A DNA stretch of 32,000 bases from Candidatus Baldrarchaeota archaeon (GTDB lineage Archaea; Asgardarchaeota; Baldrarchaeia; Baldrarchaeales; DXJG01): positions 1 through 32,000 of the forward strand of contig DXJG01000004.1 of NCBI GenBank assembly GCA_019056805.1, written 5' to 3'. This document shows, piece by piece, positions 1 to 14,780 of the stretch. Below the pieces are notes generated by a model. That model made no database searches. It was not told the DNA's origin and worked only from the letters and a program-made list of their open reading frames with translations. Position numbers and translations under genes: made by a program. Each line of letters begins with the position of its first letter. The stretch's first letter is position 1.

Positions 1-252
1 TATGAGGATTTCTCTGCAAGTTTTCGCTAAGTTTTTTTATTGATTCTAAGATTTCATCTTCATTCTTTCAATCCTCTTTTATGAGGATTTCTCTGCAAGT
101 GGGGTTGGATGATTGTTGAGGAACCTCCGATGATTGTGCCTTTCAATCCTCTTTTATGAGGATTTCTCTGCAAGTAGTTCATCTGGGAAGTATGTTCCTA
201 TTTCTTGTAGATTTAATCTTTCAATCCTCTTTTATGAGGATTTCTCTGCAAG
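1..252 (-). CRISPR. CRISPR array, leader-proximal end; continues beyond the left window edge. 35-bp repeat CTTGCAGAGAAATCCTCATAAAAGAGGATTGAAAG (minus strand)
   Basis: Identical repeats at 65-99, 140-174 and 218-252 plus a partial copy at 1-20. Unique spacers at 21-64 (44 nt), 100-139 (40 nt) and 175-217 (43 nt). The minus-strand repeat ends in the canonical ATTGAAAG handle and has a 7-bp stem (AATCCTC/GAGGATT, 6-nt loop). Adjacent to cas1-cas2-cas4. Confidence 0.98.
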
Positions 253-716
253 GCGTCATAGAGATTTATCTTTTTACTTTATATTATTTATTGTTTAGAT
301 TTTTATGTATTGTGTGTTGGAACATTTTGCTAAGACTTGTATCCTAATAAAATTGTACCAAGTAGTGTTTTTGTTAGTTTTTGTCTTTACATAGATGTAT
401 CTCAAAATTTTATCTTATTTTTTCGAAGCTACTTGGTCATGATGTTTCTTTGCCTGATATTTCATTTATTTATTGCTTTGTCTTATTTTCTTGGTTTTAA
501 GTTTGATTTTTATTTTTTTCTCTATTTGTATAGCTATTTTTTGTATGAGCTTTTGCAAGTATTTACGATTTTTGTTCTGTTCTTTTTTGCTATTTTGTTC
601 GGTTATTCTATAGTTTCTGGGCATTATATCACTATTTTTACATTATTGTTCTAAAATGGAACTATATTTCACAAGGTTTATAAGTTCAATGATACACTTT
701 TTACACGGTGGAGTGA
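253..716 (-). promoter_or_regulatory. CRISPR leader with putative TATA box (TATAAA at 278-283, minus strand); probably also holds the divergent promoter of the adaptation operon
   Basis: Very AT-rich, no credible ORF, directly abuts the terminal repeat on the side predicted by the ATTGAAAG orientation; TATAAA lies 25 nt upstream of the first repeat. Left boundary is firm, right boundary uncertain. Confidence 0.75.
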
Positions 717-3594: not shown

Positions 3595-4266
3595 TTAGTT
3601 TTTCTCATAAGAAGTCTTACTTGATTTTTCTGTTAAAGCCAATGCTAGGGGTCTTAACTTATATTCAACTCTTCTGCCTGTTTTTCTCTCTATCACATAT
3701 CCTTTTTCTATTAATCCTCTAATTCTTTTGAATAGCGTTGCTTTGGGTATTTCTAATTCTCTGCTTAGTTCTGAAAGTGTGTAATGTGGAAATTCCCGTA
3801 GAACTCCTAATAATTTGATCTCAGTGCTAGTTAACGGTTTTAACACGAACAGTTCTATCGGAAAACGGACTGGTTCTGCTAGATTCTCGGGATATAGCTC
3901 TAGATATATTTTGTAGGGTGGAAAAACGTATAATACGGCAGCTAGGGTTTCTAGTATTAGTAGCCTCATTCCCCCGCTAAGATTCACGTAAACATCCTCC
4001 GTTTCTCTATATTCGAAAAGTTTCCTAACGATGTCTCCTATGGCTTCTTCTGGATTTGTAACGTCAACTTTCAATACGGTTATTTGTACGTCTTCAAAAA
4101 ATCGAGTAATGAAGTTTCTAAATTCATCTTCTGCGCGTTTTGACTTTTCATCTTCCTGTAAGGGTTTTAGAATTAGAACGTGGTCTCCAACCTTTGGCGT
4201 GGTCTTCATAACTCCCTTTATTTGAAATTTAACATCATAACCAAGAGTTACTATTAAAAGTTTCAT
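3595..4266 (-). CDS. csa3: CRISPR locus transcriptional regulator Csa3 (CARF plus C-terminal wHTH)
   Basis: N-terminal TLGYDVKF, CARF motif VNLSGGMRLLIL, C-terminal HTH LSELSRELEIPKATLFKRIRGLIEKGYV. Confidence 0.9.
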   Translation of the reverse strand: MKLLIVTLGYDVKFQIKGVMKTTPKVGDHVLILKPLQEDEKSKRAEDEFRNFITRFFEDVQITVLKVDVTNPEEAIGDIVRKLFEYRETEDVYVNLSGGMRLLILETLAAVLYVFPPYKIYLELYPENLAEPVRFPIELFVLKPLTSTEIKLLGVLREFPHYTLSELSRELEIPKATLFKRIRGLIEKGYVIERKTGRRVEYKLRPLALALTEKSSKTSYEKN

Positions 4267-4267
4267 G

Positions 4268-5026
4268 TTAATCTACCCTGATGTTATTTAAGAATTCCAT
4301 AAGTTCATTTCTAGCATCTAAAATATCATCAGGATGCGGAAGATCTCTAAGAAAGATTGGCATCCATCCTGCATCTTGGCAGTTACCTCTATTTTTTGAA
4401 GCGGTTATATTATCACATAAAGTTAAAATTCTCAGAAAAATTATTGTATTTAAATAAAGATTTAACCCCTTTTTGAAGCTTTTTAACCTGTCATCAAGTT
4501 GTTTAACTAATGGAACTATATCTTCGTTGAATGTTAGAGAGTTTGGAAGTAATTTTACATTTATTATGTTAATATTCCACTTCTTGCAAAGGTAAGAAAT
4601 CAAGCTTTTAAGGTCATTGGAGTTTCTCAAGTTTAATTCTTTTGGAGCCTTAAATTTATCCCAGGAGCGTATGTCTTTAATTAATCTCGGACCTCTCATA
4701 GCCATATGATGCCAGATTATTGATAATTGTATGGTATCTCTTAGGAAAATATCGATATTTAATAGCACTTTTCCAGCTATAGCAGCTGAGTAATATTCAT
4801 GTTTTGGAAAACCTCTATTGGTTTTAATTCTTTCCTGATATTCGTCGTATCCTTTTGCGACGTCATGAAGAAGTATCATTGCTTTTAGTGCTTCCTCTGG
4901 GTTTTTTATTCCTGTCCGCTTCTTTATAAATGTCATGTATTTTGTATTTACGAAGTATTTTTGAAATACCTCTATTCCTACATCTAAATGTTCGGAAAGA
5001 AGTTCACATTTAGCTGCTAACACCAT
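4268..5026 (-). CDS. cas3'': Cas3'' HD nuclease (split Cas3)
   Basis: Motifs EHL, LLHDVAK, KHEYYS, IIWHHM, LTLCDN; overlaps the cas3' stop. Confidence 0.93.
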   Translation of the reverse strand: MVLAAKCELLSEHLDVGIEVFQKYFVNTKYMTFIKKRTGIKNPEEALKAMILLHDVAKGYDEYQERIKTNRGFPKHEYYSAAIAGKVLLNIDIFLRDTIQLSIIWHHMAMRGPRLIKDIRSWDKFKAPKELNLRNSNDLKSLISYLCKKWNINIINVKLLPNSLTFNEDIVPLVKQLDDRLKSFKKGLNLYLNTIIFLRILTLCDNITASKNRGNCQDAGWMPIFLRDLPHPDDILDARNELMEFLNNIRVD

Positions 5027-6716
5027 ATGCCACCTTTTGGTAAAGCTTAGTGTCTATCTGAACTCCGAGAACGCCCAAATGAACCATATAAATTTCAGGA
5101 AAAGTTAAAGTTAGCATTTTTTTCAGAGTACTATAATCATCAATCGACATAATTGTTCTCCCCTTGTAAACAAGTAATTTAACGTCGCCTGTTTGTAATA
5201 AACGTTTTATAAACCTTATTGTGGCAGGAAATCCAAATTTTGAGAGATTTTTAATAAATTCCCTTTCTTCGAGATTTAATTCTTCGTTCCATACAAGGAC
5301 ATTAATAAGTTTTGCTTCCCTAATAAAGCCTTCTCCAAGAACTTCGATGATAGCATCTTTAGAACTGGAAAAAGGATTTAACATGTGCCTTATTTTGCTG
5401 GGTTTTGGGAACATCTTTTCGTGTACATACACCCTATCTATTAATTCTTGATAACCCAGTCCTTCCTTAGTTCTAGGGATTCTCCACCAAACAGTATTCT
5501 CTTTTTCTAAAATTTTTAATGTGTTCAGCGTTAAGTCTAATGAATAGACGTGATATTTATCGCTGAAATTGTTGAAACTATTTTTGTCAAGTAAAATAGT
5601 AATTTCTCCAAATTCTTCTTCAAATCTCGCAACTCTGCCAGCGCGTTGAACTAAAGAGCTAGCTGGAGCTATATCTGTTATTAATATCTGAGCTGATATA
5701 TTTACCCCAGCTTCTATAACCTGAGTAGAGACTATTATCCATTCGTTTTCCTTTAAACGTTCTATAGCACGTTCTTTATCTCTCGAAGTTAACTTTCCGT
5801 GAAGGAGAATGGGCGATAAACCCTTGCGGATTAGGGCATTATAAACTCCTATAGCTCTATCAACTTTATTTAAAACAACAAGAATCCTTTCATAACTACC
5901 ACTTTTCTCTAAAACCTTTTCAACAATCGAGGTTATTTCATTAACTTTTTCTATTCTAGTTTTTATTTTCTTCCCTCTTTCTATTGCCTCAAACTCCGGA
6001 TCTTTATAAGTTTCCCCATATATAATATTTGAGTAGGCAGTACCTGTGCAATTACTCACATTGATCATAAAGTCTCTCAGGAATTTAGGAAAAGTAGCTG
6101 TCATTATTATTGTGGGTATTTTACTCCATGCTAGGAAGAAAAGTAGAGACGCTAAAGCGTCACGAGAAGAGGGTGAATCAAGAAGAATCTGGGGCTCATC
6201 TAATATTACTGTTGATTCCAGTATTGCGCCTCGTGATACTTCGTAATGTCCGTAGTTAGTCCATTCACTACTACGAATTATCTTAGTGGCTTCGGCTGGT
6301 GGAAATTTCATCAAGTGCATTGAGAATGTATCGAACGTGGTGAATATAAGGAGCTTGTTAAGGAAGGGACTGCCTGGAACGTACATCATTTGTTTTGCCG
6401 TTAATTTCAATACTTTCGATAAACCTATGTTCTTAATATTACCAATAAAGTTGGAGTAGGCGTCTTCAATAATACTTCTAAGGGGAAGGACATGTATTGT
6501 TCGTATACTGTTCTCCGGGTTAAGGATATTGTAAAGGCCAAGGGAGTAAACTATAGAGGTTTTTCCATAGCCAGTAGGTAACTGTACTGCAAGCATGTCT
6601 CCCTTAAAGTTTTCCAATACCGTTGGAATAATTTGGCGTTCACTACGCTTCGAGTAGAATCCGGACAATACCAGTGATTTATACACATCAGATGGACTAA
6701 TCTGATAACGCATCAT
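5010..6716 (-). CDS. cas3': Cas3' SF2 helicase
   Basis: Walker A LPTGYGKT, motif II ILDEPQ, MTAT, LLHGK, STQVIEAGVNI, QRAGRVAR. Confidence 0.96.
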   Translation of the reverse strand: MMRYQISPSDVYKSLVLSGFYSKRSERQIIPTVLENFKGDMLAVQLPTGYGKTSIVYSLGLYNILNPENSIRTIHVLPLRSIIEDAYSNFIGNIKNIGLSKVLKLTAKQMMYVPGSPFLNKLLIFTTFDTFSMHLMKFPPAEATKIIRSSEWTNYGHYEVSRGAILESTVILDEPQILLDSPSSRDALASLLFFLAWSKIPTIIMTATFPKFLRDFMINVSNCTGTAYSNIIYGETYKDPEFEAIERGKKIKTRIEKVNEITSIVEKVLEKSGSYERILVVLNKVDRAIGVYNALIRKGLSPILLHGKLTSRDKERAIERLKENEWIIVSTQVIEAGVNISAQILITDIAPASSLVQRAGRVARFEEEFGEITILLDKNSFNNFSDKYHVYSLDLTLNTLKILEKENTVWWRIPRTKEGLGYQELIDRVYVHEKMFPKPSKIRHMLNPFSSSKDAIIEVLGEGFIREAKLINVLVWNEELNLEEREFIKNLSKFGFPATIRFIKRLLQTGDVKLLVYKGRTIMSIDDYSTLKKMLTLTFPEIYMVHLGVLGVQIDTKLYQKVAYGVSS

Positions 6717-7908
6717 AAATACCCTTCAACAAGTCATTATATTTTAATGGTGATTTTTCAGGAGTAATTCTAGCCATTAAGTAGACTAATTCCTCGGGCC
6801 TACGAGAACCCACTATGGATTGATACAGAAGTTGTGTTATACGATAACATGTCATGTAGTCGCCATACATTCTCGAACAGTAGTCTTGTTTCCCGCTTGA
6901 AAGTCTTATAGTACAGAATAAGAAATTTATTAGTATATTTAGTACTCTTTCTGGATCATTTGTACAATTGGCCAGTTTGTAGGCAAATTTCATTACAGGC
7001 TCCACATTAATGCCTATTTTTTCAAGCATAGTGAAAGATTTTCCTGTATAAAGTATCCTGATAACATTGTAGGAAGGTATCTCAAGGATCCCCTTTTCAT
7101 GATAATCTAAATATGTTTGAAGACCTAAAAGCAAAATATAGGCTACTACTGGTGAAGGTCGTACCCTAACTTTGGAGATCACATTATATATTCCTTTTTC
7201 TCCATAGAAGGCTTTGCTGACCCTCCCTTCTCCCGTTAAAACTTTTACATGTTCTTTGAAATTGTAATCTTCCAAAGCTTTTATGAAAACGGATTCGGGT
7301 AACGGAGACAAAATTATTTCTCCACCAGCGTAATAACCGTAGCTGAGCGAAAATCCAGCCAATACTAATGCCATCCACTCCCTGCTCATTTTATAGTCAA
7401 ATTTAACGGTAAAAGTTCCAAATCCCTTTCCGTATTCATATTTTTCTATTTTAAATGGCTGGAGGTTTGTATACTTTCCATCTCCAAGTTTAATATTATC
7501 TCCCTTCACCTTAATTATCGAAAGTTGGTCTATCCATCTTTCCCCATTTTTAACGATATCATCTTTAGCCCATTGAATCATGTATTTAATATATGAAAGA
7601 TAATCCCCATTGGGGACTTGTATACCTACTGCTTCAAATATTTTATTTAATGTTTGTTTGTCGTTTTTATGAATACCAGGAAAATATACTCCTAACTCTT
7701 CTTTTAATGCAATATTTTTCAATGATGTTTCAAACATGTCCTTCAAAAATGATATAAAGAAATTTTCACTGGTTTCGACCACCAATTCGTTGCCATTATA
7801 TTTTACGTCCGCATTGAAATATTCATAATCAGTAAACACTGAAAGAGAGCTAATTACTAGATCTCTTACTATGGATCCCTCTGGGGGGATTATAATGACC
7901 CATTCCAT
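6697..7908 (-). CDS. cas8a: Type I-A Cascade large subunit (Cas8a/Csa4-like)
   Basis: About 400-aa ORF between cas5 and cas3' in canonical I-A order. The segment LQPFKIEKYEYG resembles Csa4/Cas8a2. Start placed at ATG 7908 (GGAGGT RBS); the ORF track extends it to 7923. Assignment is mainly by synteny. Confidence 0.75.
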   Translation of the reverse strand: MEWVIIIPPEGSIVRDLVISSLSVFTDYEYFNADVKYNGNELVVETSENFFISFLKDMFETSLKNIALKEELGVYFPGIHKNDKQTLNKIFEAVGIQVPNGDYLSYIKYMIQWAKDDIVKNGERWIDQLSIIKVKGDNIKLGDGKYTNLQPFKIEKYEYGKGFGTFTVKFDYKMSREWMALVLAGFSLSYGYYAGGEIILSPLPESVFIKALEDYNFKEHVKVLTGEGRVSKAFYGEKGIYNVISKVRVRPSPVVAYILLLGLQTYLDYHEKGILEIPSYNVIRILYTGKSFTMLEKIGINVEPVMKFAYKLANCTNDPERVLNILINFLFCTIRLSSGKQDYCSRMYGDYMTCYRITQLLYQSIVGSRRPEELVYLMARITPEKSPLKYNDLLKGIYDALSD

Positions 7909-7913
7909 AACTG

Positions 7914-8669
7914 TTACCTCCAAGGAACAATTATATCGTCTCCAGCTTCAAGGGCAGTATATTCATCTTTGAGTTCTACCTGAACTTTAGTACTTTCCAA
8001 GGCATCCCAATCGTATGGAAAGACTATGGGGATTTTAGGTGCCGAGGTATAATCTCCAATTGGAGTAGAAGTCCAATCTACTACATTAAAGATTGAAAAT
8101 ACTCCGTTTACTCTTTTTGAAGCTCTTAAAGGAAAATAGAAACTAGTTTCTACCGTCCTTTCTTTTCGATATTTAATTGTACCATACTCAACTTTACTAA
8201 CTGATACTATAGATTCCCGAGCCCCTATACGGCATATACTCCATGCTGAATATATAAGATTCTCGAGCCAGTCGTTACCTAGGAGTTTCTCGGCTACTTT
8301 ATCCTCGAAAATATATATGATTTCTAAACATCCCGTAGCTACCGTATAAATCTTACCAGTAGCTACGGCATCAGTAATGATACTTTTTTCTCTTAATTTA
8401 TAAGAAACTACTCTGCTTAAATCATTATATTCAAGTAATGGGATATCCACTTTCAGATGTATGTTCCTAAATAATTTTCTTATTCTTTCGGCGCTACTGT
8501 ACTCTCCATACACTTCACCTTTGTTGAGATTAAGACCGTAAGCCAGTGCTCCGATTAAAGTCGTGGGGGGTATTATTTTAAGAGCTGGTCTAGACTTGGT
8601 GAAACCATGATAATTGAGCAAGAATCCCCAGTGAGGTCTTAAAAAAATTTTAAGGTAGTAAAGCGCCAT
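7914..8669 (-). CDS. cas5: Type I-A Cas5
   Basis: RPHWGF and IIPPTTLIGALAY motifs, C-terminal G-rich RIGARES loop; ATG 8669 preceded by GAGGAGG. Confidence 0.93.
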   Translation of the reverse strand: MALYYLKIFLRPHWGFLLNYHGFTKSRPALKIIPPTTLIGALAYGLNLNKGEVYGEYSSAERIRKLFRNIHLKVDIPLLEYNDLSRVVSYKLREKSIITDAVATGKIYTVATGCLEIIYIFEDKVAEKLLGNDWLENLIYSAWSICRIGARESIVSVSKVEYGTIKYRKERTVETSFYFPLRASKRVNGVFSIFNVVDWTSTPIGDYTSAPKIPIVFPYDWDALESTKVQVELKDEYTALEAGDDIIVPWR

Positions 8670-8679
8670 AAAACCTCCT

Positions 8680-9768
8680 CTAGACACTTAAGAGGTCAAA
8701 AAGTTTTACAAATGCTTCTTCTGGTGTTTTAACTTTCTCTACCATCTTGGGTAACTCGATCTCTTTACTGTATGCTATAATTTTAGTGTTCGGCTGAATT
8801 CCTAGCTTTCTTAGCATGTCTTCATAAGATTTAAGTCTACTAACAGTATCTTCTATGAAGTTAGGCCATTGAGGCGGTGAAATCGTAAATGGTTTACCTT
8901 TACTTGCTACAATGGCAAGACTTAGAATATCGCTTATAGGCTGAAACCTTGTTCTTTTTGCTCCGTAAGTCATGCCCGTAATTACTTGGGCCAATGCTCC
9001 AATTGCAACCTTTATTCTTCTTTTTCTTTCGTTCTCATCTACAGCATCTTCCACTTTTATCATACTGGTTCTTCCTATTCCATCTAGATTTATATTAAAT
9101 GATAGACCGTAAATGGCAGAGGCAGTCTCTATATAATATATCATTTGAGCTTGTCTTTCTGTTTGTTCACTCTCGGTCTGTCCGCTTCCAGATTGCTCAC
9201 CCTTTAATGTTTCACTCGCTACATGTCTGACGTGAAATTGGGATTCTATTGCAGTAGCTTCAAGAGTATCGTACGTTGGTATAATGTACCCCACCTGAAA
9301 TATTGAGGTACGTTTTACGGGAAAATCTTCGGCAATCATAAAGCCACCTATGTCAGCGACAAGGCTAAGCTTAATCGCTGTTTTTTCGATTTCATGTTTC
9401 AATGTTAAGATGTTTTTGACATCTTTCTTCTTTTTTAATTCCTTATTTCGTTCAAAGAGACTAAGAAGCTCAGGAGGCATGTGTTTTTTATCGCCAAATT
9501 TAAATAGTTCACCCCTAAGAGCCCATTCATCTATGGGGGGCTCTTTACCATAGATAAGCTTGGCAACTTCGGTTAAAGCAACTTGATAAGCGTGAGCAAA
9601 GGATTCACCACTTATGGCTGGAACGTATACTATCCTATATTGGTCACCCTTTTTTATCACGATAGGCGCTCTTCTATGTTTAGTTAAGTTGCCAACAGAC
9701 TCAACCATGTTCAAGGCTTCAATATTTGATAAAAATCTAACACCAACCGAGATAAACATACCCATCAC
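8680..9768 (-). CDS. cas7: Type I-A Cas7 (Csa2/DevR)
   Basis: Motifs EALNMVESVGNLTKHR, VPAISGESFAHAYQ, DIGGFM, VKRTS, YGAKRTRF. True start may be ATG 9765 or 9759. Confidence 0.96.
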   Translation of the reverse strand: MMGMFISVGVRFLSNIEALNMVESVGNLTKHRRAPIVIKKGDQYRIVYVPAISGESFAHAYQVALTEVAKLIYGKEPPIDEWALRGELFKFGDKKHMPPELLSLFERNKELKKKKDVKNILTLKHEIEKTAIKLSLVADIGGFMIAEDFPVKRTSIFQVGYIIPTYDTLEATAIESQFHVRHVASETLKGEQSGSGQTESEQTERQAQMIYYIETASAIYGLSFNINLDGIGRTSMIKVEDAVDENERKRRIKVAIGALAQVITGMTYGAKRTRFQPISDILSLAIVASKGKPFTISPPQWPNFIEDTVSRLKSYEDMLRKLGIQPNTKIIAYSKEIELPKMVEKVKTPEEAFVKLFDLLSV

Positions 9769-10119
9769 CTATCCTAAATCTTTTTCTGGCAAAGTTAAAG
9801 CAAGGGCTGCAAGAATACTGGCTACACTTAAATCCCTGCTAATAAGCTCTACTACTTTCTGAACCACGTTTGCCGATGGTAAATGAACTTTTTCATTTTG
9901 ATCAAATGCGGATCGGGCCTCCCTAAGAACTTCTCTGATAGTTATTTCAGCTATTGTGGGATTGTATGCGTTGGCTAATCGATCTATGTAACCGTATTTC
10001 CTTGATCTAGCAAAGTATCTTAAGGTGCGAGCAAAATCTTTTATAGCATCCCATTCTTCTTTAGATAGACGATGTAATTCCTCCTGCACTTCTCTCTCAC
10101 CATATTTTAAATGTTGCAT
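9769..10119 (-). CDS. csa5: Type I-A small subunit Csa5 (Cas11)
   Basis: About 110-aa helical protein directly upstream of cas7 with a YGYIDRLANA motif. Alternative GTG start at 10089 with a GGTGA RBS. Confidence 0.85.
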   Translation of the reverse strand: MQHLKYGEREVQEELHRLSKEEWDAIKDFARTLRYFARSRKYGYIDRLANAYNPTIAEITIREVLREARSAFDQNEKVHLPSANVVQKVVELISRDLSVASILAALALTLPEKDLG

Positions 10120-10833
10120 TTAGTTATTTATACTTTATGGTCTCTTCGGTATGGAAATCGTTTATAGTAGATGGAAACAAATGTATATGATTTCTATTTG
10201 AGAGAAACGCTAACGACGGTTTAAACATTTATTAAAAGCAGATATTCATGATAATTTTCCCTTTTCCAAGCGATTCTATTTGCATCTTTATGTCTAGAGG
10301 CGAGTTAAAAATTGTAAAAGAAACAGTTTTTAACTTACATAGTAACATGGAAAAATTACATAGCGTCGAATTCCAACTAAATCAAAACTTCTGTTTTAAA
10401 AAGCAAAGAGTAAAAATAACTCTTTTACTCAAACGCAGGACGGTATCTTTTTGAGTTTAATAAATATTTTACGTATTTATGATAATTTTCTTCGCAATAT
10501 TATTTGTAAAACCATTATTTTGTGAAACAGCACGTTTCTATTACTGGTGGACAAACCAATGTACATTTACATTATAACTTATATCATCTTAGATTGCCAT
10601 CTGCACGGATGTTACATCTAACTCTAAATTAAGAACTAACTTAAAAACTTGAAATGTTAGGAAGAGATTTGTGAGGAAGTAAGTTTTGGTGCTTAGTTAC
10701 AAGGTACTGATATCTGGAAGGATTAAATGAAAATTTGGGTGTAGAAGTACTCGTGGACTGAGGTATTAGACATTTTAGTATTGTTTGTTTATTAAGTTTA
10801 GAGATAGCATGATAATTTTGAACGTTTTTCTAG

Positions 10834-11640
10834 TCAAGTCGTTCTGTTTTCCTGCATGTTTATTTTTGTTACTCCCATTCCTTGTGCTCTGTGTGCTCCC
10901 GTGTTTGCGTACTCTGCGTACTTTGTTAGTATTGTTGTCCATTTTGCGTATCCGCTTTTTGGGTTTTTTATTATGTACTCTATTTTTCCTTTGTATCCTG
11001 TTTGTTTTGTATCTTTTATTTGGACTTCTCTTGTTCCTCCTCTAAAGGATTTTATGTACATGTTTTTTAATGTCCACGTTTTTAGTTCCTCTAGATCTAT
11101 TTTGTAGGGATGAAACATGTTCCATATTCTTGCTAGATTTGTGTAGAGTAGGTGGGGTAGGGGGAAGGGTAGGTATGCTTCTGCTTCTTTCCATCGAAAA
11201 TGGGTTGGGGTTAAGAATTCTATTTGTATTTTTGTGGTTGCGGGTGCTTCTTTTAATAGGGTCTCATAAGTTTTCGATTCTATTTGTATTTGTAATATGT
11301 TGAATGATATTTTTCCAATTTCTATTTGTTGAGTTTCTACGATTGCTTCTGTTGTTGTTTTTGCTAGTTCTTCTGTTAAGGTATTTATGGCGAAACTGTA
11401 TCGTTTTCCTTCTTCTATTATCCATTTCTCCTCTAATATCTTCTTTTTTCCTTGAAGAGGTTTTAATGGTTGTACCGCGTAGGGTCTTAGAGCGTTTTCT
11501 TGGTGTAATTTTTCTGCTAGTTGTTTGTCTTGTTTTGCTATTATGTTTAAGAATAAGGCTTGTATTTGTGGTCCCGTGAAGGGATTTAGAACCCCTTTTT
11601 TTGTTGCCATAACTTGGAAGGTAAATTTACATACTTTCAT
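10834..11640 (-). CDS. cas6: CRISPR repeat-processing endoribonuclease Cas6
   Basis: LH...RPYAV, FLTPTHFR, PLP, GYKGKIEY and C-terminal G-rich loop GAHRAQGMG. Confidence 0.95.
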   Translation of the reverse strand: MKVCKFTFQVMATKKGVLNPFTGPQIQALFLNIIAKQDKQLAEKLHQENALRPYAVQPLKPLQGKKKILEEKWIIEEGKRYSFAINTLTEELAKTTTEAIVETQQIEIGKISFNILQIQIESKTYETLLKEAPATTKIQIEFLTPTHFRWKEAEAYLPFPLPHLLYTNLARIWNMFHPYKIDLEELKTWTLKNMYIKSFRGGTREVQIKDTKQTGYKGKIEYIIKNPKSGYAKWTTILTKYAEYANTGAHRAQGMGVTKINMQENRTT

Positions 11641-11673
11641 TTTAATCCTCTTTTATGAGGAATTCTTTGATGT
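11639..11673 (-). repeat. Solitary degenerate CRISPR repeat overlapping the cas6 RBS and start codon
   Basis: Minus strand ACATCAAAGAATTCCTCATAAAAGAGGATTAAAAT versus repeat CTTGCAGAGAAATCCTCATAAAAGAGGATTGAAAG: 27/35 identical, with an 18-nt exact core at 11644-11661, in the same orientation as the array. Confidence 0.9.
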
Positions 11674-11729: not shown

Positions 11730-13301
11730 TTAGGGTATGAATTCGTGTAGGTACGTTTTTGTTTGTTCTTTTTTGTTGATTGTTCGAGTTGTGGTCTTCC
11801 GTTTGTTTATTTGTTTTCTGATTTCTATTGTTGTGAGGTGTTTTGTTTTTCTTGGTCTTATTTGTGTTATTATTGGGTATTTTGCTGTTACTCCTGTTAT
11901 TGCTGCGGTTCCCGTCGGTAGATAGGGTATTCTTTGGAAGTCTTCTGCTGTTGTGTAGTCTATGTAGGGTCTTATGTAGTCTAGGTCTGTTTTGCTGTCT
12001 ATTCTTAGGATTATTTTTGTTCCGCATTGGCTTATGACGTCTTTGTCTAGTCCTACTATTCTTTGGCTTGTTATGCATAGTCCTATCCCAAATTTTCTCC
12101 CTTCGCGTGCTATTTTCCTCATTATTGTTTTGCTGTATGTTTCTTCGTCTTGTGGTGCAAATCTATGGCTTTCTTCTACTACAACCATTAGGGGTGGTAT
12201 TTTTTCTTCTTTTCTAGCGTTAAAGAGTTCATTTAGCAGCGATCCTACGAATATTCTTCTTATATGTTCTTCCATTTCTTCACTTACATCTATTATTGTT
12301 AGTTGTCTTGGTTTGACTATTTCTTCTGGTTTAAGTCCCTTTCCAAATATTCCTATTTCTTTTAGGATGCTTATTCTTCGTTTTAGGGATAGTTGGGTGC
12401 TTCTGGCGAATCCCCATTCTCTAGCTATTTTTTCTACTTCTTGTAGGAGGGTTTCTGGGTCTATTGTTTCTATTTGTTTTTCTTTTAGTGACTTCATTGC
12501 TAGGTATAGTAGGTCTTTCATTACTGTTGAGAGTTGGCATATTTCTGCCATTGCATCAGCGTTTAGTGAGTTGAAGTTTAATGTTAGTTCCCCAGTTCCT
12601 TGGTAGACTGGTGATAGAATTTTTACATTGTAGGTTTTTGGGTTGAGATTTAATTCTTTTAGTCTTTCTAGGTCTTCTTTTTCATCATTTTGATACTGGA
12701 ATGTGTAGTATTCCCCGTGGGGGTCAATGACCACTACTGGGAAGTTGTGTTCTAATAATTCTTCGATTAGGACTCCTACCGTGTAGGATTTTCCTGTTCC
12801 TGTTGCCCCTAGTATAGCTATGTGTAATCTTACTAGTTTTTCTATGTCTAGTTTTACTTTTATTTCCGGATTTCCATACATTGTACCTATGAATGCTCCA
12901 TCTTCTTTTAGTCCCATTAGTTTTGTTAGTATGTTTTTGTCTGCTTTGTAAACTCTTTCTCCCGGTTCTGGAGCAATGTTTGGTGGGTGTATTTTTTCTT
13001 CTTCGAACATTCCTACGATTCTTACCTCGGCGGCTCTCCATCTTCCAATGTTTACTGGGAATCTCGCTGTTACTGGGAGTTGTTTGAGCAGGTGGTCTCT
13101 TACGAATTCAGGATTTTTAAAAAATTGGTTAAAGGCTTTTACTTCAGTGATTCTCCCTATTATTACGTATTTTCCAGCTGGGACTTCAACGTACTCTCCA
13201 ACTTTAATATCTTTGTCTTCCGCTATTTGGAATGTGAATTTTAGATGTGTTGGAGGGCCTTCTCTACTAATAATTATTCCGATTTCATTCTTCTTCTCCA
13301 T
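11730..13301 (-). CDS. herA: HerA-family ATPase/helicase with N-terminal HAS barrel
   Basis: Walker A HIAILGATGTGKS, VIDPHGEY, Walker B VVVEESHRF, REGRKFGIGL...SQR. Start placed at ATG 13301 (GGAGAG RBS); the ORF track extends it to 13355. Confidence 0.93.
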   Translation of the reverse strand: MEKKNEIGIIISREGPPTHLKFTFQIAEDKDIKVGEYVEVPAGKYVIIGRITEVKAFNQFFKNPEFVRDHLLKQLPVTARFPVNIGRWRAAEVRIVGMFEEEKIHPPNIAPEPGERVYKADKNILTKLMGLKEDGAFIGTMYGNPEIKVKLDIEKLVRLHIAILGATGTGKSYTVGVLIEELLEHNFPVVVIDPHGEYYTFQYQNDEKEDLERLKELNLNPKTYNVKILSPVYQGTGELTLNFNSLNADAMAEICQLSTVMKDLLYLAMKSLKEKQIETIDPETLLQEVEKIAREWGFARSTQLSLKRRISILKEIGIFGKGLKPEEIVKPRQLTIIDVSEEMEEHIRRIFVGSLLNELFNARKEEKIPPLMVVVEESHRFAPQDEETYSKTIMRKIAREGRKFGIGLCITSQRIVGLDKDVISQCGTKIILRIDSKTDLDYIRPYIDYTTAEDFQRIPYLPTGTAAITGVTAKYPIITQIRPRKTKHLTTIEIRKQINKRKTTTRTINKKEQTKTYLHEFIP

Positions 13302-14748
13302 TTTTAATTCTCTCCCATCTTTTTTCATCTCTTTCTTCTTGTAATTGTTGTACATAGTCTTGAAAGACTGCTTTTAGTACTCCTTCTATTGATCTTCTTA
13401 GTTGACCTAGGTTTGAATAGGCTAATGCTTGAGCTGTACTGACTATTCCTGGTCCAGGTGGGATTCCTGGTGCTGGTGGTACTATTGCTGATGAGTATGC
13501 TAGGTCTCTGATTTTTTCATATTCTTCCCACGGATCTTTTTGAGATATGAAATCGAATCTGACGATGTAATTTCTATATTTTAGATAAAATTCATACCAG
13601 TCTTCCACGGGGGGTCTACCTTTCTCACGTTCTCTTTCTATTAAGCATGTGGTGTCTCCATCATCTAAAATATTTAGTAAAAAATTCATGTCGTTTGTTT
13701 CGGCAACTTTGAACTTTAATAATCGTTCTGCATGTTTTAAAAATATGTTATCCGTTGGAAAAGCTGTTACACCAACAACAAGTATTTTTCGTTTTTTCGC
13801 TTCTCCTACGAGTTTATAAAATAGTTCGTGACATTTATCTCTAATTAGTACTAGTTTCTTTGCTTTGACTACGAATCCATGTGGAACTAAGGTTCCCATT
13901 CTAAAATAAATATCGAACTTGTCTCCATGTTCCTCTATTGTTTTAATATCGAGTTGGTAGTGTAAAATTTCTTCTAGGTATCTTGCTGCTATACTTCTGC
14001 CTACATGTAGTAGTTCTGGGAAGTCTGTTGATAACTCGTAGAAAGGTTCTCCAGGCAGAAAAGGCTCTTTACCTCTAAATGATATAAGTTCTGGCACAAC
14101 CCTACTATCTGACCTATATTGATTTAGTATGTTTTTTTCATAGTAGCCTATGTAGCATCCTGCACTAAGATAAACTACAGATAAAACTGCAAAGTAATGT
14201 GCTCCATAATTGTTAATGTTGCGGCAGGAAGCTGATCCTGGAACATAAATATCATCTAAAGCTATATTTCTAGCTGATTTTTCATATATTAGCTTTTCTC
14301 CTATAAGCGGGCCGTATCTTCCATCTATTTTAGTCTTTCTCACTTTTTCTCTTATTTCTCCTGAAAACGCTAATTCTAGATTCAGTTTTTTGAAAATACG
14401 TTTTACTTTGTTTTCTAGAGTCTTTGCTCCTAATACTGTTTGTATGTATCCTGGATTGATGAAATCATCAAGCTTAAGTTGTATATATGGGCCTAGAGCT
14501 ACTTCTTTTAATACTTCATTTACCCATTCCTTGTTTACTGTATATTTTCCAGTACCAGCGTAATTTAGGATGCCAAGTGTGAGTAGGTCGTTTATGTAGT
14601 CTCTGATAGCTCTCTCGGTTAGTCCTGTTTCTTCGGCAAGTTTATGGACATCTATATATCCTTCTTTTGCTTCGATTTCCATGCATATATTGATTAGGAA
14701 AGTTATCCGAGCTCTGTAGGTAGCTGGTACTTTACCCATATAAAGCAC
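13285..14748 (-). CDS. N-terminal wHTH fused to a NurA-like domain with apparently degenerate catalytic motifs
   Basis: wHTH segment IDVHKLAEETGLTERAIRDYINDLLTLGIL. NurA-like spacing of IYVPGSAS, IYFRMGTL, LVVGVTAF, NDMNFLLNILDDG and PGIVSTAQALA. Overlaps the start of herA. Start is GTG 14748 or ATG 14739. Confidence 0.6.
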   Translation of the reverse strand: MLYMGKVPATYRARITFLINICMEIEAKEGYIDVHKLAEETGLTERAIRDYINDLLTLGILNYAGTGKYTVNKEWVNEVLKEVALGPYIQLKLDDFINPGYIQTVLGAKTLENKVKRIFKKLNLELAFSGEIREKVRKTKIDGRYGPLIGEKLIYEKSARNIALDDIYVPGSASCRNINNYGAHYFAVLSVVYLSAGCYIGYYEKNILNQYRSDSRVVPELISFRGKEPFLPGEPFYELSTDFPELLHVGRSIAARYLEEILHYQLDIKTIEEHGDKFDIYFRMGTLVPHGFVVKAKKLVLIRDKCHELFYKLVGEAKKRKILVVGVTAFPTDNIFLKHAERLLKFKVAETNDMNFLLNILDDGDTTCLIEREREKGRPPVEDWYEFYLKYRNYIVRFDFISQKDPWEEYEKIRDLAYSSAIVPPAPGIPPGPGIVSTAQALAYSNLGQLRRSIEGVLKAVFQDYVQQLQEERDEKRWERIKNGEEE

Positions 14749-14756
14749 CTATGTTA

Positions 14757-14780
14757 GGAAATATATTTCCGATATATAAA
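14757..14780 (-). promoter_or_regulatory. TATA box (TTTATATA, 14773-14780) and perfect 14-bp palindrome GGAAATATATTTCC (14757-14770)
   Basis: Read directly from the sequence. The TATA box lies 25-32 nt upstream of GTG 14748 and the palindrome sits between them. Confidence 0.65.

What the first reader, a model, noticed from the sequence alone, without database searches (positions are those of the whole stretch)
11639..11673. cas6 mRNA carries a CRISPR repeat mimic over its own RBS and start codon: candidate Cas6 autoregulatory switch
Seen: a single repeat copy 11.4 kb from the array, in the same orientation, 27/35 identical (27/30 over repeat positions 5-34). The exact 18-nt core TCCTCATAAAAGAGGATT keeps the TCCTC/GAGGA stem and loop. 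The 3' arm GAGGA is the Shine-Dalgarno sequence, 5 nt before the ATG, and the ATG (11640-11638) occupies the last two repeat positions. Established: Cas6 binds repeat hairpins and cuts 8 nt from the repeat 3' end, which here maps between 11647 and 11646, separating the SD from the ATG. Inference: Cas6 represses its own translation or processes its own transcript as negative feedback, with pre-crRNA competing for the enzyme. An alternative reading is a solitary-repeat-unit decoy RNA. Known CRISPR-derived regulators such as creA/CreR-type mini-arrays use a spacer between repeats to guide the effector to a promoter; I found no second repeat here.
Basis: partly seen in the sequence, partly recalled or inferred. 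Interest (0 to 1): 0.92.

Follow-up and report, generated by a model that had tools for sequence, protein, structure and literature searches.

The report
CRISPR repeat hairpin over cas6 start
In an Asgard archaeon, the messenger RNA for Cas6 (the enzyme that cuts CRISPR RNA) carries a single copy of the hairpin Cas6 normally recognises, placed right over its own ribosome-binding site, so the enzyme can probably bind or cut its own message and limit its own production; no RNA or protein experiment shows this yet.

Summary
Window 11639-11673 (-) is a solitary copy of the local type I-A CRISPR repeat, 27/35 identical, with an exact 18-nt core (11644-11661). The core is the stem-loop, the predicted Cas6 cut site (GAGG|AUU) and three further bases. 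The 3' arm GAGG(A) is the Shine-Dalgarno sequence, and the ATG of cas6 (10834-11640, -) fills repeat positions 34-35 plus one base.

It is the only such site in the 1.9-Mb genome, and all 8 mismatches lie outside the core. The one close relative (Cas6 82% identical, metagenome contigs) keeps the hairpin 17/17 plus AAAATG, while the rest of the intergenic region has diverged with indels. That relative lacks the downstream Met, so translation starts at 11640.

Thirty-one more distant Asgard cas6 loci with known cognate repeats show no such mimic, so the feature is lineage-specific. No RNA data exist for it.

My best reading (about 0.45) is a repeat-derived operator through which free Cas6 binds or cuts its own mRNA, titrated by pre-crRNA. 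The main rival (about 0.3) is a relic terminal repeat kept only as an SD or SD-masking hairpin.

I found no paper reporting natural Cas6 self-control of this kind.

The parts
11639..11673 (-). Solitary repeat-like unit, 35 nt and 27/35 identical to the array repeat
11644..11661 (-). Exact 18-nt core shared with every array repeat: 5-bp stem, 6-nt loop, scissile site and AUU
11646..11650 (-). 3' arm GAGGA, whose GAGG doubles as the Shine-Dalgarno sequence of cas6 (GAGG at -10); the predicted Cas6 cut lies between 11647 and 11646
   Evidence: sequence; SD statistics; cut position inferred from the 8-nt ATTGAAAG handle rule
11657..11661 (-). 5' arm TCCTC, which pairs with and masks the SD
10834..11640 (-). 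cas6 (268 aa). The start ATG 11640-11638 overlaps the last two repeat positions. His46 and the G-rich loop are conserved.
1..253 (-). Leader-proximal part of the cognate CRISPR array, cut by the contig end. Its degenerate terminal repeat is at the end of contig C9.
11641..11729 (-). herA-cas6 intergenic region, 89 nt. It has no T-run longer than 3, so no obvious archaeal terminator. TATA-like TTTATAAT at 11689-11682 and ATATAAAA at 11708-11701. The transcription start site is unknown.
   Evidence: sequence reading; the genome-wide TATA position profile was uninformative
11730..14748 (-). herA (11730-13355) and the wHTH/NurA-like gene (13285-14748), co-directional upstream genes. The same gene order occurs in the relative.
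3595..10119 (-). Rest of the type I-A effector module: csa5, cas7/csa2, two unassigned ORFs (probably cas5 and cas8a), cas3', cas3'' HD and csa3

Best explanation
The element is a solitary, CRISPR-repeat-derived hairpin embedded in the translation-initiation region of cas6. It keeps the part of the repeat that this Cas6 family recognises and cuts: the short stem-loop that abuts the 8-nt handle, the scissile GAGG|AUU junction, and much of the adjacent A-rich 5' segment. It has lost the distal handle bases that Cascade would read.

Proposed mechanism (inferred, not shown): when Cas6 exceeds the supply of pre-crRNA repeats, free Cas6 binds this hairpin on its own mRNA. Binding locks the SD inside the stem and sterically blocks the ribosome. 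If cleavage follows, the SD is severed from the AUG, leaving a 6-nt leader with a 5'-OH. Either outcome lowers Cas6 synthesis. Abundant array transcript titrates Cas6 away and relieves the block.

Shown: repeat homology, uniqueness in the genome, overlap with the SD and ATG, the predicted fold, conservation in one relative, and an intact Cas6. Inferred: transcription through the hairpin, binding, cleavage, and the sign of the effect.
For: Homology to the repeat is far beyond chance, and the site is unique in the genome.

The mismatches avoid the stem-loop and cut-site core (P = 0.009). Across Asgard repeats of this family, that core is the structurally conserved and covarying part: CCUC/GAGG, CCCC/GGGG and CCUU/AAGG stems, each directly before ATTGAAAG.

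In the 82%-identical relative the hairpin is 17/17 identical and AAAATG is kept, with substitutions immediately on both sides. The rest of the intergenic region is about 55-60% identical with indels, and fourfold sites of cas6 and herA are only 0.77 and 0.70 identical. By my arithmetic 0.75^17 is about 0.008.

Arrays in the relative's sample carry the same core.

The start codon and the SD are validated. Cas6 looks active: His46 is invariant in 20 homologues, the G-rich loop is present, and the fold matches TtCas6B/A.

Precedents show that single repeat-like units are bound and cut by Cas6. Cas6-3 cuts the S. solfataricus ncRNA60 precursor, which lies beside cas6-3 (PMC4041471). Cas6f binds and processes RacrIF1 (PMC10651486).

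There is no oligo-T terminator between herA and cas6, and both TATA-like boxes lie upstream of the hairpin, so the hairpin is probably transcribed.
Against: There are no RNA data, no mapped transcription start site and no biochemistry.

Only one relative carries the element, so the conservation test rests on a single comparison; for the 5' arm plus loop alone, p is about 0.03-0.04 at the neutral rate.

Thirty-one more distant cas6 loci with known cognate repeats lack any mimic, as do both cas6 genes of the nearest named relative. The mechanism is therefore not needed by Cas6 in general.

The closest solved enzymes, TtCas6A/B, require the single-stranded 5' segment as well as the stem-loop (PMC3902920). 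The mimic keeps only 6/9 of the adjacent 5' bases (8/9 in the relative), and the full 7-bp repeat stem is reduced to 5 bp plus a U-U mismatch.

If transcription starts inside the 5' arm, the hairpin would exist only on read-through transcripts.

A cut leaving a 6-nt leader might still be translated in leaderless fashion in an archaeon, so the sign of the effect is uncertain.
Confidence: 0.45

Rival explanations
1. Relic with a Cas6-independent role. The unit is the degenerate terminal repeat of an array that once lay just upstream of cas6. Its GAGG was co-opted as the SD, and the hairpin is either neutral or a simple SD-masking attenuator. Cas6 binding has no regulatory consequence.
For: In Ca. 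Asgardarchaeum abyssi an array in the same orientation ends about 410 nt upstream of cas6 (L186), so the array-then-cas6 order exists in this family. The true terminal repeat of the window's own array, at the end of C9, carries the same G-to-A change in the handle (ATTAAGAG against the mimic's ATTAAAAT). The mimic is restricted to one lineage. A CCUC/GAGG hairpin is by its nature an anti-SD/SD pair.
Against: Random decay should not spare exactly the 18-nt stem-loop and cut site. The 5' arm and loop are not needed for SD function, yet they are 11/11 conserved in the relative while neighbouring bases changed. If the hairpin is transcribed in a cell containing Cas6, binding is hard to avoid given the precedents.
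Confidence: 0.3
2. Maturation signal rather than brake. Cas6 cuts the nurA-like/herA/cas6 polycistron at the hairpin, which uncouples cas6 from the upstream genes. The herA fragment would then end in a Cas6-bound 3' hairpin. The cas6 message would carry a 5'-OH and a 6-nt leader and would be stable and translated in leaderless fashion.
For: The nurA-like/herA/cas6 order is conserved with a short, terminator-free spacer. Cas6-generated 5'-OH ends are reported to be more stable than primary 5' ends (PMC10651486). Leaderless translation is common in archaea (general knowledge).
Against: The genome uses SD sequences widely and the cut would remove the SD. A 6-nt leader is at the edge of what counts as leaderless. 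There are no RNA data.
Confidence: 0.12
3. DNA-level operator. The palindrome TCCTC-N6-GAGGA, just downstream of a TATA-like box, is bound as double-stranded DNA by a dimeric regulator (Csa3, the wHTH/NurA-like protein, or a repeat-binding protein), which couples cas6 transcription to array occupancy.
For: The inverted repeat has 11-bp centre-to-centre spacing and lies 20-30 bp downstream of TTTATAAT. csa3 and a wHTH gene are in the locus.
Against: The palindrome occurs nowhere else in the genome outside the array, including the other cas promoters. It is unlike the palindrome noted at 14757-14770. Conservation extends to the loop and to the AUU, which a half-site operator would not require.
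Confidence: 0.06
4. crRNA-like guide or decoy: a degenerate mini-array of the CreR/CreA type, or a Racr-like sponge for Cas6 and Cas7.
For: Mini-arrays and solitary repeat units are common in type I loci, including 43% of I-A loci with a repeat-like sequence (PMC10120712).
Against: No second repeat exists: the window at spacer distance matches only 13/35 (my hand alignment) and its AAATCC is not kept in the relative. The would-be spacer is the cas6 coding sequence itself. The distal handle bases are not kept. The element sits in the host cas locus, not on a mobile element.
Confidence: 0.04

Closest known systems
Standalone repeat-like sequences / single repeat units (SRUs) in CRISPR-cas loci (Shmakov et al. 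2023, PMC10120712)
   Same: A single repeat-derived unit outside the array, inside a cas locus, conserved in a closely related locus, with no recognisable second repeat.
   Different: That survey assigns functions mainly to two-repeat mini-arrays whose spacer guides Cascade to a promoter. Here the unit overlaps the SD and ATG of cas6 and has no spacer logic, so the implied effector is Cas6 acting on RNA.
CreR/CreA degenerate mini-CRISPR autorepression of cas genes (bioRxiv 10.1101/2023.03.10.532045; PMC8501985)
   Same: A CRISPR-derived element gives negative feedback on Cas expression and can sense crRNA abundance by competing for Cas proteins.
   Different: CreR acts through Cascade binding promoter DNA with a PAM and a seed. 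It needs two repeats and a spacer, and it does not regulate cas6. None of those features is present here.
ncRNA60 precursor beside cas6-3 of Sulfolobus solfataricus (Sokolowski et al. 2014, PMC4041471)
   Same: A single repeat-like motif next to a cas6 gene in an archaeon, shown to be cut by its Cas6 at the repeat-type site.
   Different: ncRNA60 is a separate non-coding RNA that ends up in the Csm complex. It does not overlap the cas6 ribosome-binding site, and no regulatory role was shown.
Racr RNA anti-CRISPRs (Camara-Wilpert et al. 2023, PMC10651486)
   Same: A solitary repeat mimic that Cas6 binds and processes.
   Different: Racrs are carried by phages and plasmids and poison Cascade assembly. 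This unit is chromosomal, within the host's own cas6 leader.
Autogenous translational operators that mimic the protein's primary RNA site (ribosomal-protein operons, MS2 coat protein on the replicase start hairpin, T4 RegA/gp32; general knowledge). The engineered counterpart is Cas6f used for translational repression (MORTISE, PMC13478208).
   Same: An RNA-binding protein's cognate hairpin placed over the SD/AUG, with the abundant primary target acting as competitor.
   Different: I found no natural Cas6 example in the literature. Binding and repression are untested here.

Membership tests
CRISPR-derived standalone repeat (SRU) | Significant similarity to the cognate array repeat | tested here: met
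   27/35 identical with an exact 18-nt core; unique in the genome
CRISPR-derived standalone repeat (SRU) | Located outside the array, within or next to the cas locus | tested here: met
   11.4 kb from the array, between herA and cas6 of a type I-A locus
CRISPR-derived standalone repeat (SRU) | Conserved in closely related loci | tested here: met
   Present in the single close relative, L037-L040 and L094; only one relative is available
CreR/CreA-type regulatory mini-array | Second (degenerate) repeat at spacer distance | tested here: not met
   The window at spacer distance is 13/35 identical (my hand alignment) and not conserved. No repeat-like hit in the 715-nt gap either.
CreR/CreA-type regulatory mini-array | Spacer partially complementary to a cas or toxin promoter with a PAM | tested here: not met
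   The sequence after the unit is the cas6 ORF itself
Autogenous translational operator (protein binds a mimic of its primary RNA target on its own mRNA) | Operator resembles the primary RNA target and overlaps the SD/start codon | tested here: met
Autogenous translational operator (protein binds a mimic of its primary RNA target on its own mRNA) | Protein binds the operator and represses its own translation | not testable with these tools
   No RNA-protein modelling tool and no RNA-seq holder was available
Racr RNA anti-CRISPR | Encoded by a virus or plasmid, not associated with cas genes | tested here: not met
   Chromosomal, inside the cas locus, syntenic in the relative
Cas6 endoribonuclease (the protein) | Double-ferredoxin Cas6 fold, G-rich loop, catalytic His | tested here: met
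   PF10040/PF19308 hits. His46, G248, G254 and G256 invariant in 20 homologues. Model pLDDT 92.6, TM 0.77 to 4C9D.

The most novel reading that the evidence does not exclude
Cas6 is a natural autogenous regulator. It binds, and probably cuts, a repeat mimic laid over its own ribosome-binding site, so Cas6 synthesis is matched to the number of repeat hairpins being transcribed from the arrays. This would be ribosomal-protein-style feedback operating in crRNA biogenesis, here in an Asgard archaeon, and possibly evolved more than once.
Probability: 0.4. Interest if true: 0.8.

Novelty: new variant of a known kind. Interest (0 to 1): 0.62.

Why it matters
Known CRISPR-derived regulators work through the effector complex on DNA. 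How the level of Cas6 itself is set is not known, even though Cas6 is often single-turnover and stays bound to each crRNA. A repeat mimic on the cas6 ribosome-binding site would be a protein-RNA feedback loop that needs no guide and that senses pre-crRNA load directly. It is directly testable with one purified protein and one short RNA. It would also give a first post-transcriptional control element in an Asgard archaeon, and a natural counterpart of the engineered Cas6f/Csy4 translational switches.

Tried and rejected
(1) Chance match: rejected.

(2) Translation from the downstream Met: rejected.

(3) Second repeat or mini-array, either inside the cas6 5' coding region or in the 715-nt gap 10120-10833: none found.

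(4) A wider Cas6 regulon. The two next-best genome hits are at chance level. C17:43160 is a conserved TATA-type promoter of a cdc48-like gene in congeners that lack the hairpin. C17:51584 is 25/35, a level at which about 1-2 hits are expected.

(5) A DNA palindrome regulon: no other copies in the genome.

(6) Generality. Cas6 5' regions were aligned to cognate repeats in 13 loci from 10 genomes (for one genome a congener's repeat was used) and in 18 further loci. No score exceeded background. The 9-nt hits in L236 and L239 lie in an upstream coding gene. The two cas6 leaders of G004 match nothing repeated in that genome.

(7) Covariation between mimic and repeat: not testable, because the relative's arrays have the same core. 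The 5' flanks are A-rich and do not discriminate.

(8) RNA evidence: no RNA holder was listed.

(9) Laying four DNA runs gave only identical-strain contigs, so no new variation.

(10) Promoter placement from a genome-wide TATA position profile: uninformative.

L079, an array edge in the relative's sample, is not syntenic with the window.

(12) The search for related loci with the 20-sequence alignment failed for lack of a conserved stretch; an 8-sequence alignment worked.

Full report
**What is there**

The window begins inside a CRISPR array (1-253, minus strand). Its 35-nt repeat folds into a short stem-loop and ends in the canonical ATTGAAAG handle. The leader and a cas1-cas2-cas4 block follow on the plus strand. 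A type I-A effector module lies on the minus strand:
- csa3, cas3'' HD, cas3', two unassigned ORFs, cas7/csa2 and csa5;
- a 715-nt ORF-free gap;
- cas6 (10834-11640);
- upstream of cas6, herA and a wHTH/NurA-like gene.

Named relatives of the Cas6 are Asgard archaea. Ca. Baldrarchaeum yapensis is in the same order, and others are Asgardarchaeum, Jordarchaeia and Freyarchaeia. The genome is a 1.92-Mb, 35% GC assembly of 18 contigs.

- The exact 18-mer TCCTCATAAAAGAGGATT is found only in the array repeats and at 11644-11661 (-).
- Over 35 nt the solitary copy is 27/35 identical to the repeat. This is the best non-array score in the genome; the next are two sites at 25/35, about what the tail of the score distribution predicts.
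- All eight mismatches lie outside the 18-nt core; P(match run of 18 or more) = 0.009.
- The core is the stem (UCCUC/GAGGA), the AUAAAA loop, the position where an 8-nt handle would be cut off (GAGG|AUU), and three more bases.
- The 3' arm supplies GAGG at -10 from the ATG, and the ATG overlaps the last two repeat positions.
- In this genome GAGG peaks at -12/-11, and 44% of long ORFs carry an SD core. The SD assignment is therefore reasonable, one base closer than the optimum.

**The start codon**

- The 82%-identical relative has no Met at the MATKK position (it reads IKATKK) and keeps the upstream ATG.
- The 48-50% orthologues start with GTG at the homologous position.
- In a confident model (pLDDT 92.6) residues 2-12 form the first beta-strand.
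- The model's best structural matches are T. thermophilus Cas6B and Cas6A and S. solfataricus Cas6.
- His46 and the glycine-rich loop are invariant in 20 homologues.

The enzyme therefore looks like a working Cas6 whose translation starts inside the mimic.

**Comparative evidence**

Only one close relative exists in the databases searched: P0002, on four short metagenome contigs with the same nurA-like/herA/cas6 order.
- Its herA-cas6 spacer has diverged, at roughly 55-60% identity with an 11-nt indel.
- Fourfold-degenerate sites are 0.77 (cas6) and 0.70 (herA) identical.
- Yet the hairpin is 17/17 identical, AAAATG is kept, and substitutions flank the block on both sides.
- At a neutral identity of 0.75 a 17-base run has probability about 0.008. 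For the 11 bases that are not needed as SD (5' arm and loop) the probability is about 0.04 (my arithmetic).
- Arrays from the relative's sample carry the same core, with a 2-nt longer 5' part. Mimic and repeats have therefore stayed matched, but no covariation test is possible.

Across Asgard repeats of this family, the 4-5-bp stem directly before ATTGAAAG is the structurally conserved, covarying feature. It is exactly what the mimic retains.

**Limits on generality**

I aligned cas6 start regions (about -90 or -120 to +40 or +60) with the cognate repeat in 13 cas6 loci from 10 genomes and in 18 further loci that had an array within 10 kb.
- Nothing rose above background: the maximum local score was 18, against 45 for the window.
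- The 9-nt hits in L236 and L239 lie in an upstream coding gene.
- The two cas6 leaders of the Baldrarchaeum genome match nothing repeated in that genome.

The mimic is thus specific to this lineage.

**Origin**

In Ca. Asgardarchaeum an array in the same orientation ends about 410 nt before cas6. The window's own terminal repeat, at the end of contig C9, shows the same G-to-A change in the handle as the mimic. The simplest history is that the mimic descends from a terminal repeat that once lay in front of cas6.

**Mechanism**

Homology to the repeat is certain; function is inferred. I rank as most likely (about 0.45) an autogenous operator.
- Free Cas6 binds the hairpin on its own mRNA, masks or removes the SD, and is titrated away by pre-crRNA.
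- Experiments show that single repeat-like units are Cas6 substrates: the ncRNA60 precursor next to cas6-3 in S. solfataricus (PMC4041471) and RacrIF1 with Cas6f (PMC10651486).
- Cas6f has been used in an engineered translational-repression system (PMC13478208).
- There is no oligo-T terminator between herA and cas6, and both TATA-like boxes lie upstream of the hairpin, so the hairpin should be on the transcript. The transcription start site is unknown, and a genome-wide TATA profile gave no help.

Caveats:
- The nearest solved enzymes need the single-stranded 5' segment as well as the stem-loop (PMC3902920), and the mimic keeps only part of that segment.
- The repeat's 7-bp stem is reduced to 5 bp.
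- A cut would leave a 6-nt leader that might still be translated in an archaeon.

Rivals: a relic kept as an SD or SD-masking hairpin without Cas6 feedback (0.3); a Cas6 processing site that matures the polycistron (0.12); a DNA operator (0.06; no other copies); a guide or decoy (0.04; no second repeat).

**Comparison with the known**

The element qualifies as a standalone repeat unit in the sense of Shmakov et al. 2023 (PMC10120712). It fails the defining features of CreR/CreA mini-arrays and of Racrs.

Searches for natural Cas6 self-regulation found nothing.

I could not check it, and it is not counted as evidence here.

**Verdict**

This is a real, non-random, conserved repeat mimic on the cas6 ribosome-binding site. 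It is a new variant of a known class of elements, with a coherent and easily testable autoregulatory reading that remains unproven.

Noticed in passing
window 10120-10833: A 715-nt stretch between cas6 and csa5 has no ORF of 80 aa or more. It contains no repeat-like sequence, and its first 200 nt are not conserved in the relative. Its content is unexplained (possibly a decayed gene or a non-coding RNA).
   Followed up: partly
G000:C9:612170-612202 (L001 1490-1525): The end of contig C9 carries a degenerate terminal repeat (handle ATTAAGAG) followed by unique sequence. The array therefore bridges the start of C11 (the window) and the end of C9.
   Followed up: partly
G000:C9:555837-556064: A truncated second cas6, with only about the first 77 residues alignable. 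It resembles the Cas6 of a same-genus genome (G001) and is probably a remnant of another CRISPR-Cas system. There is no repeat mimic upstream.
   Followed up: partly
L010, L011, L012, L030 (Frey-/Jordarchaeia cas6 loci), about 1480-1515: These cas6 genes have no ATG/GTG/TTG in front of the conserved first beta-strand (IDLWIEM...). The only ATG corresponds to the window's second Met. A conserved CATGGAGGGAG motif lies upstream, out of frame. This suggests a non-canonical (ATH) start or an N-terminally shortened protein.
   Followed up: no
G000:C17:43143-43189 (L006 about 1490-1530): A sequence 25/35 identical to the repeat lies upstream of a cdc48-like gene. It is a conserved TATA-type promoter element (AAATCCTTATAAAAG) in three same-genus genomes, where the hairpin is not kept. 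The CRISPR repeat core therefore resembles this promoter motif by chance.
   Followed up: yes
G000:C17:51550-51584: Another 25/35 match to the repeat, with a compensatory stem change (CUUC/GAAG), directly followed by an ATG of a 9-codon ORF. This is chance-level by the genome-wide score distribution.
   Followed up: no
window 11730-14748; L037 163-3160: The wHTH/NurA-like gene, herA and cas6 form a co-directional block that is conserved in the 82% relative.
   Followed up: partly
L186 1-3983 and 4394-5194: In Ca. Asgardarchaeum abyssi a CRISPR array of more than 50 repeats ends about 410 nt upstream of cas6 in the same orientation. This is a possible ancestral arrangement for the mimic.
   Followed up: partly
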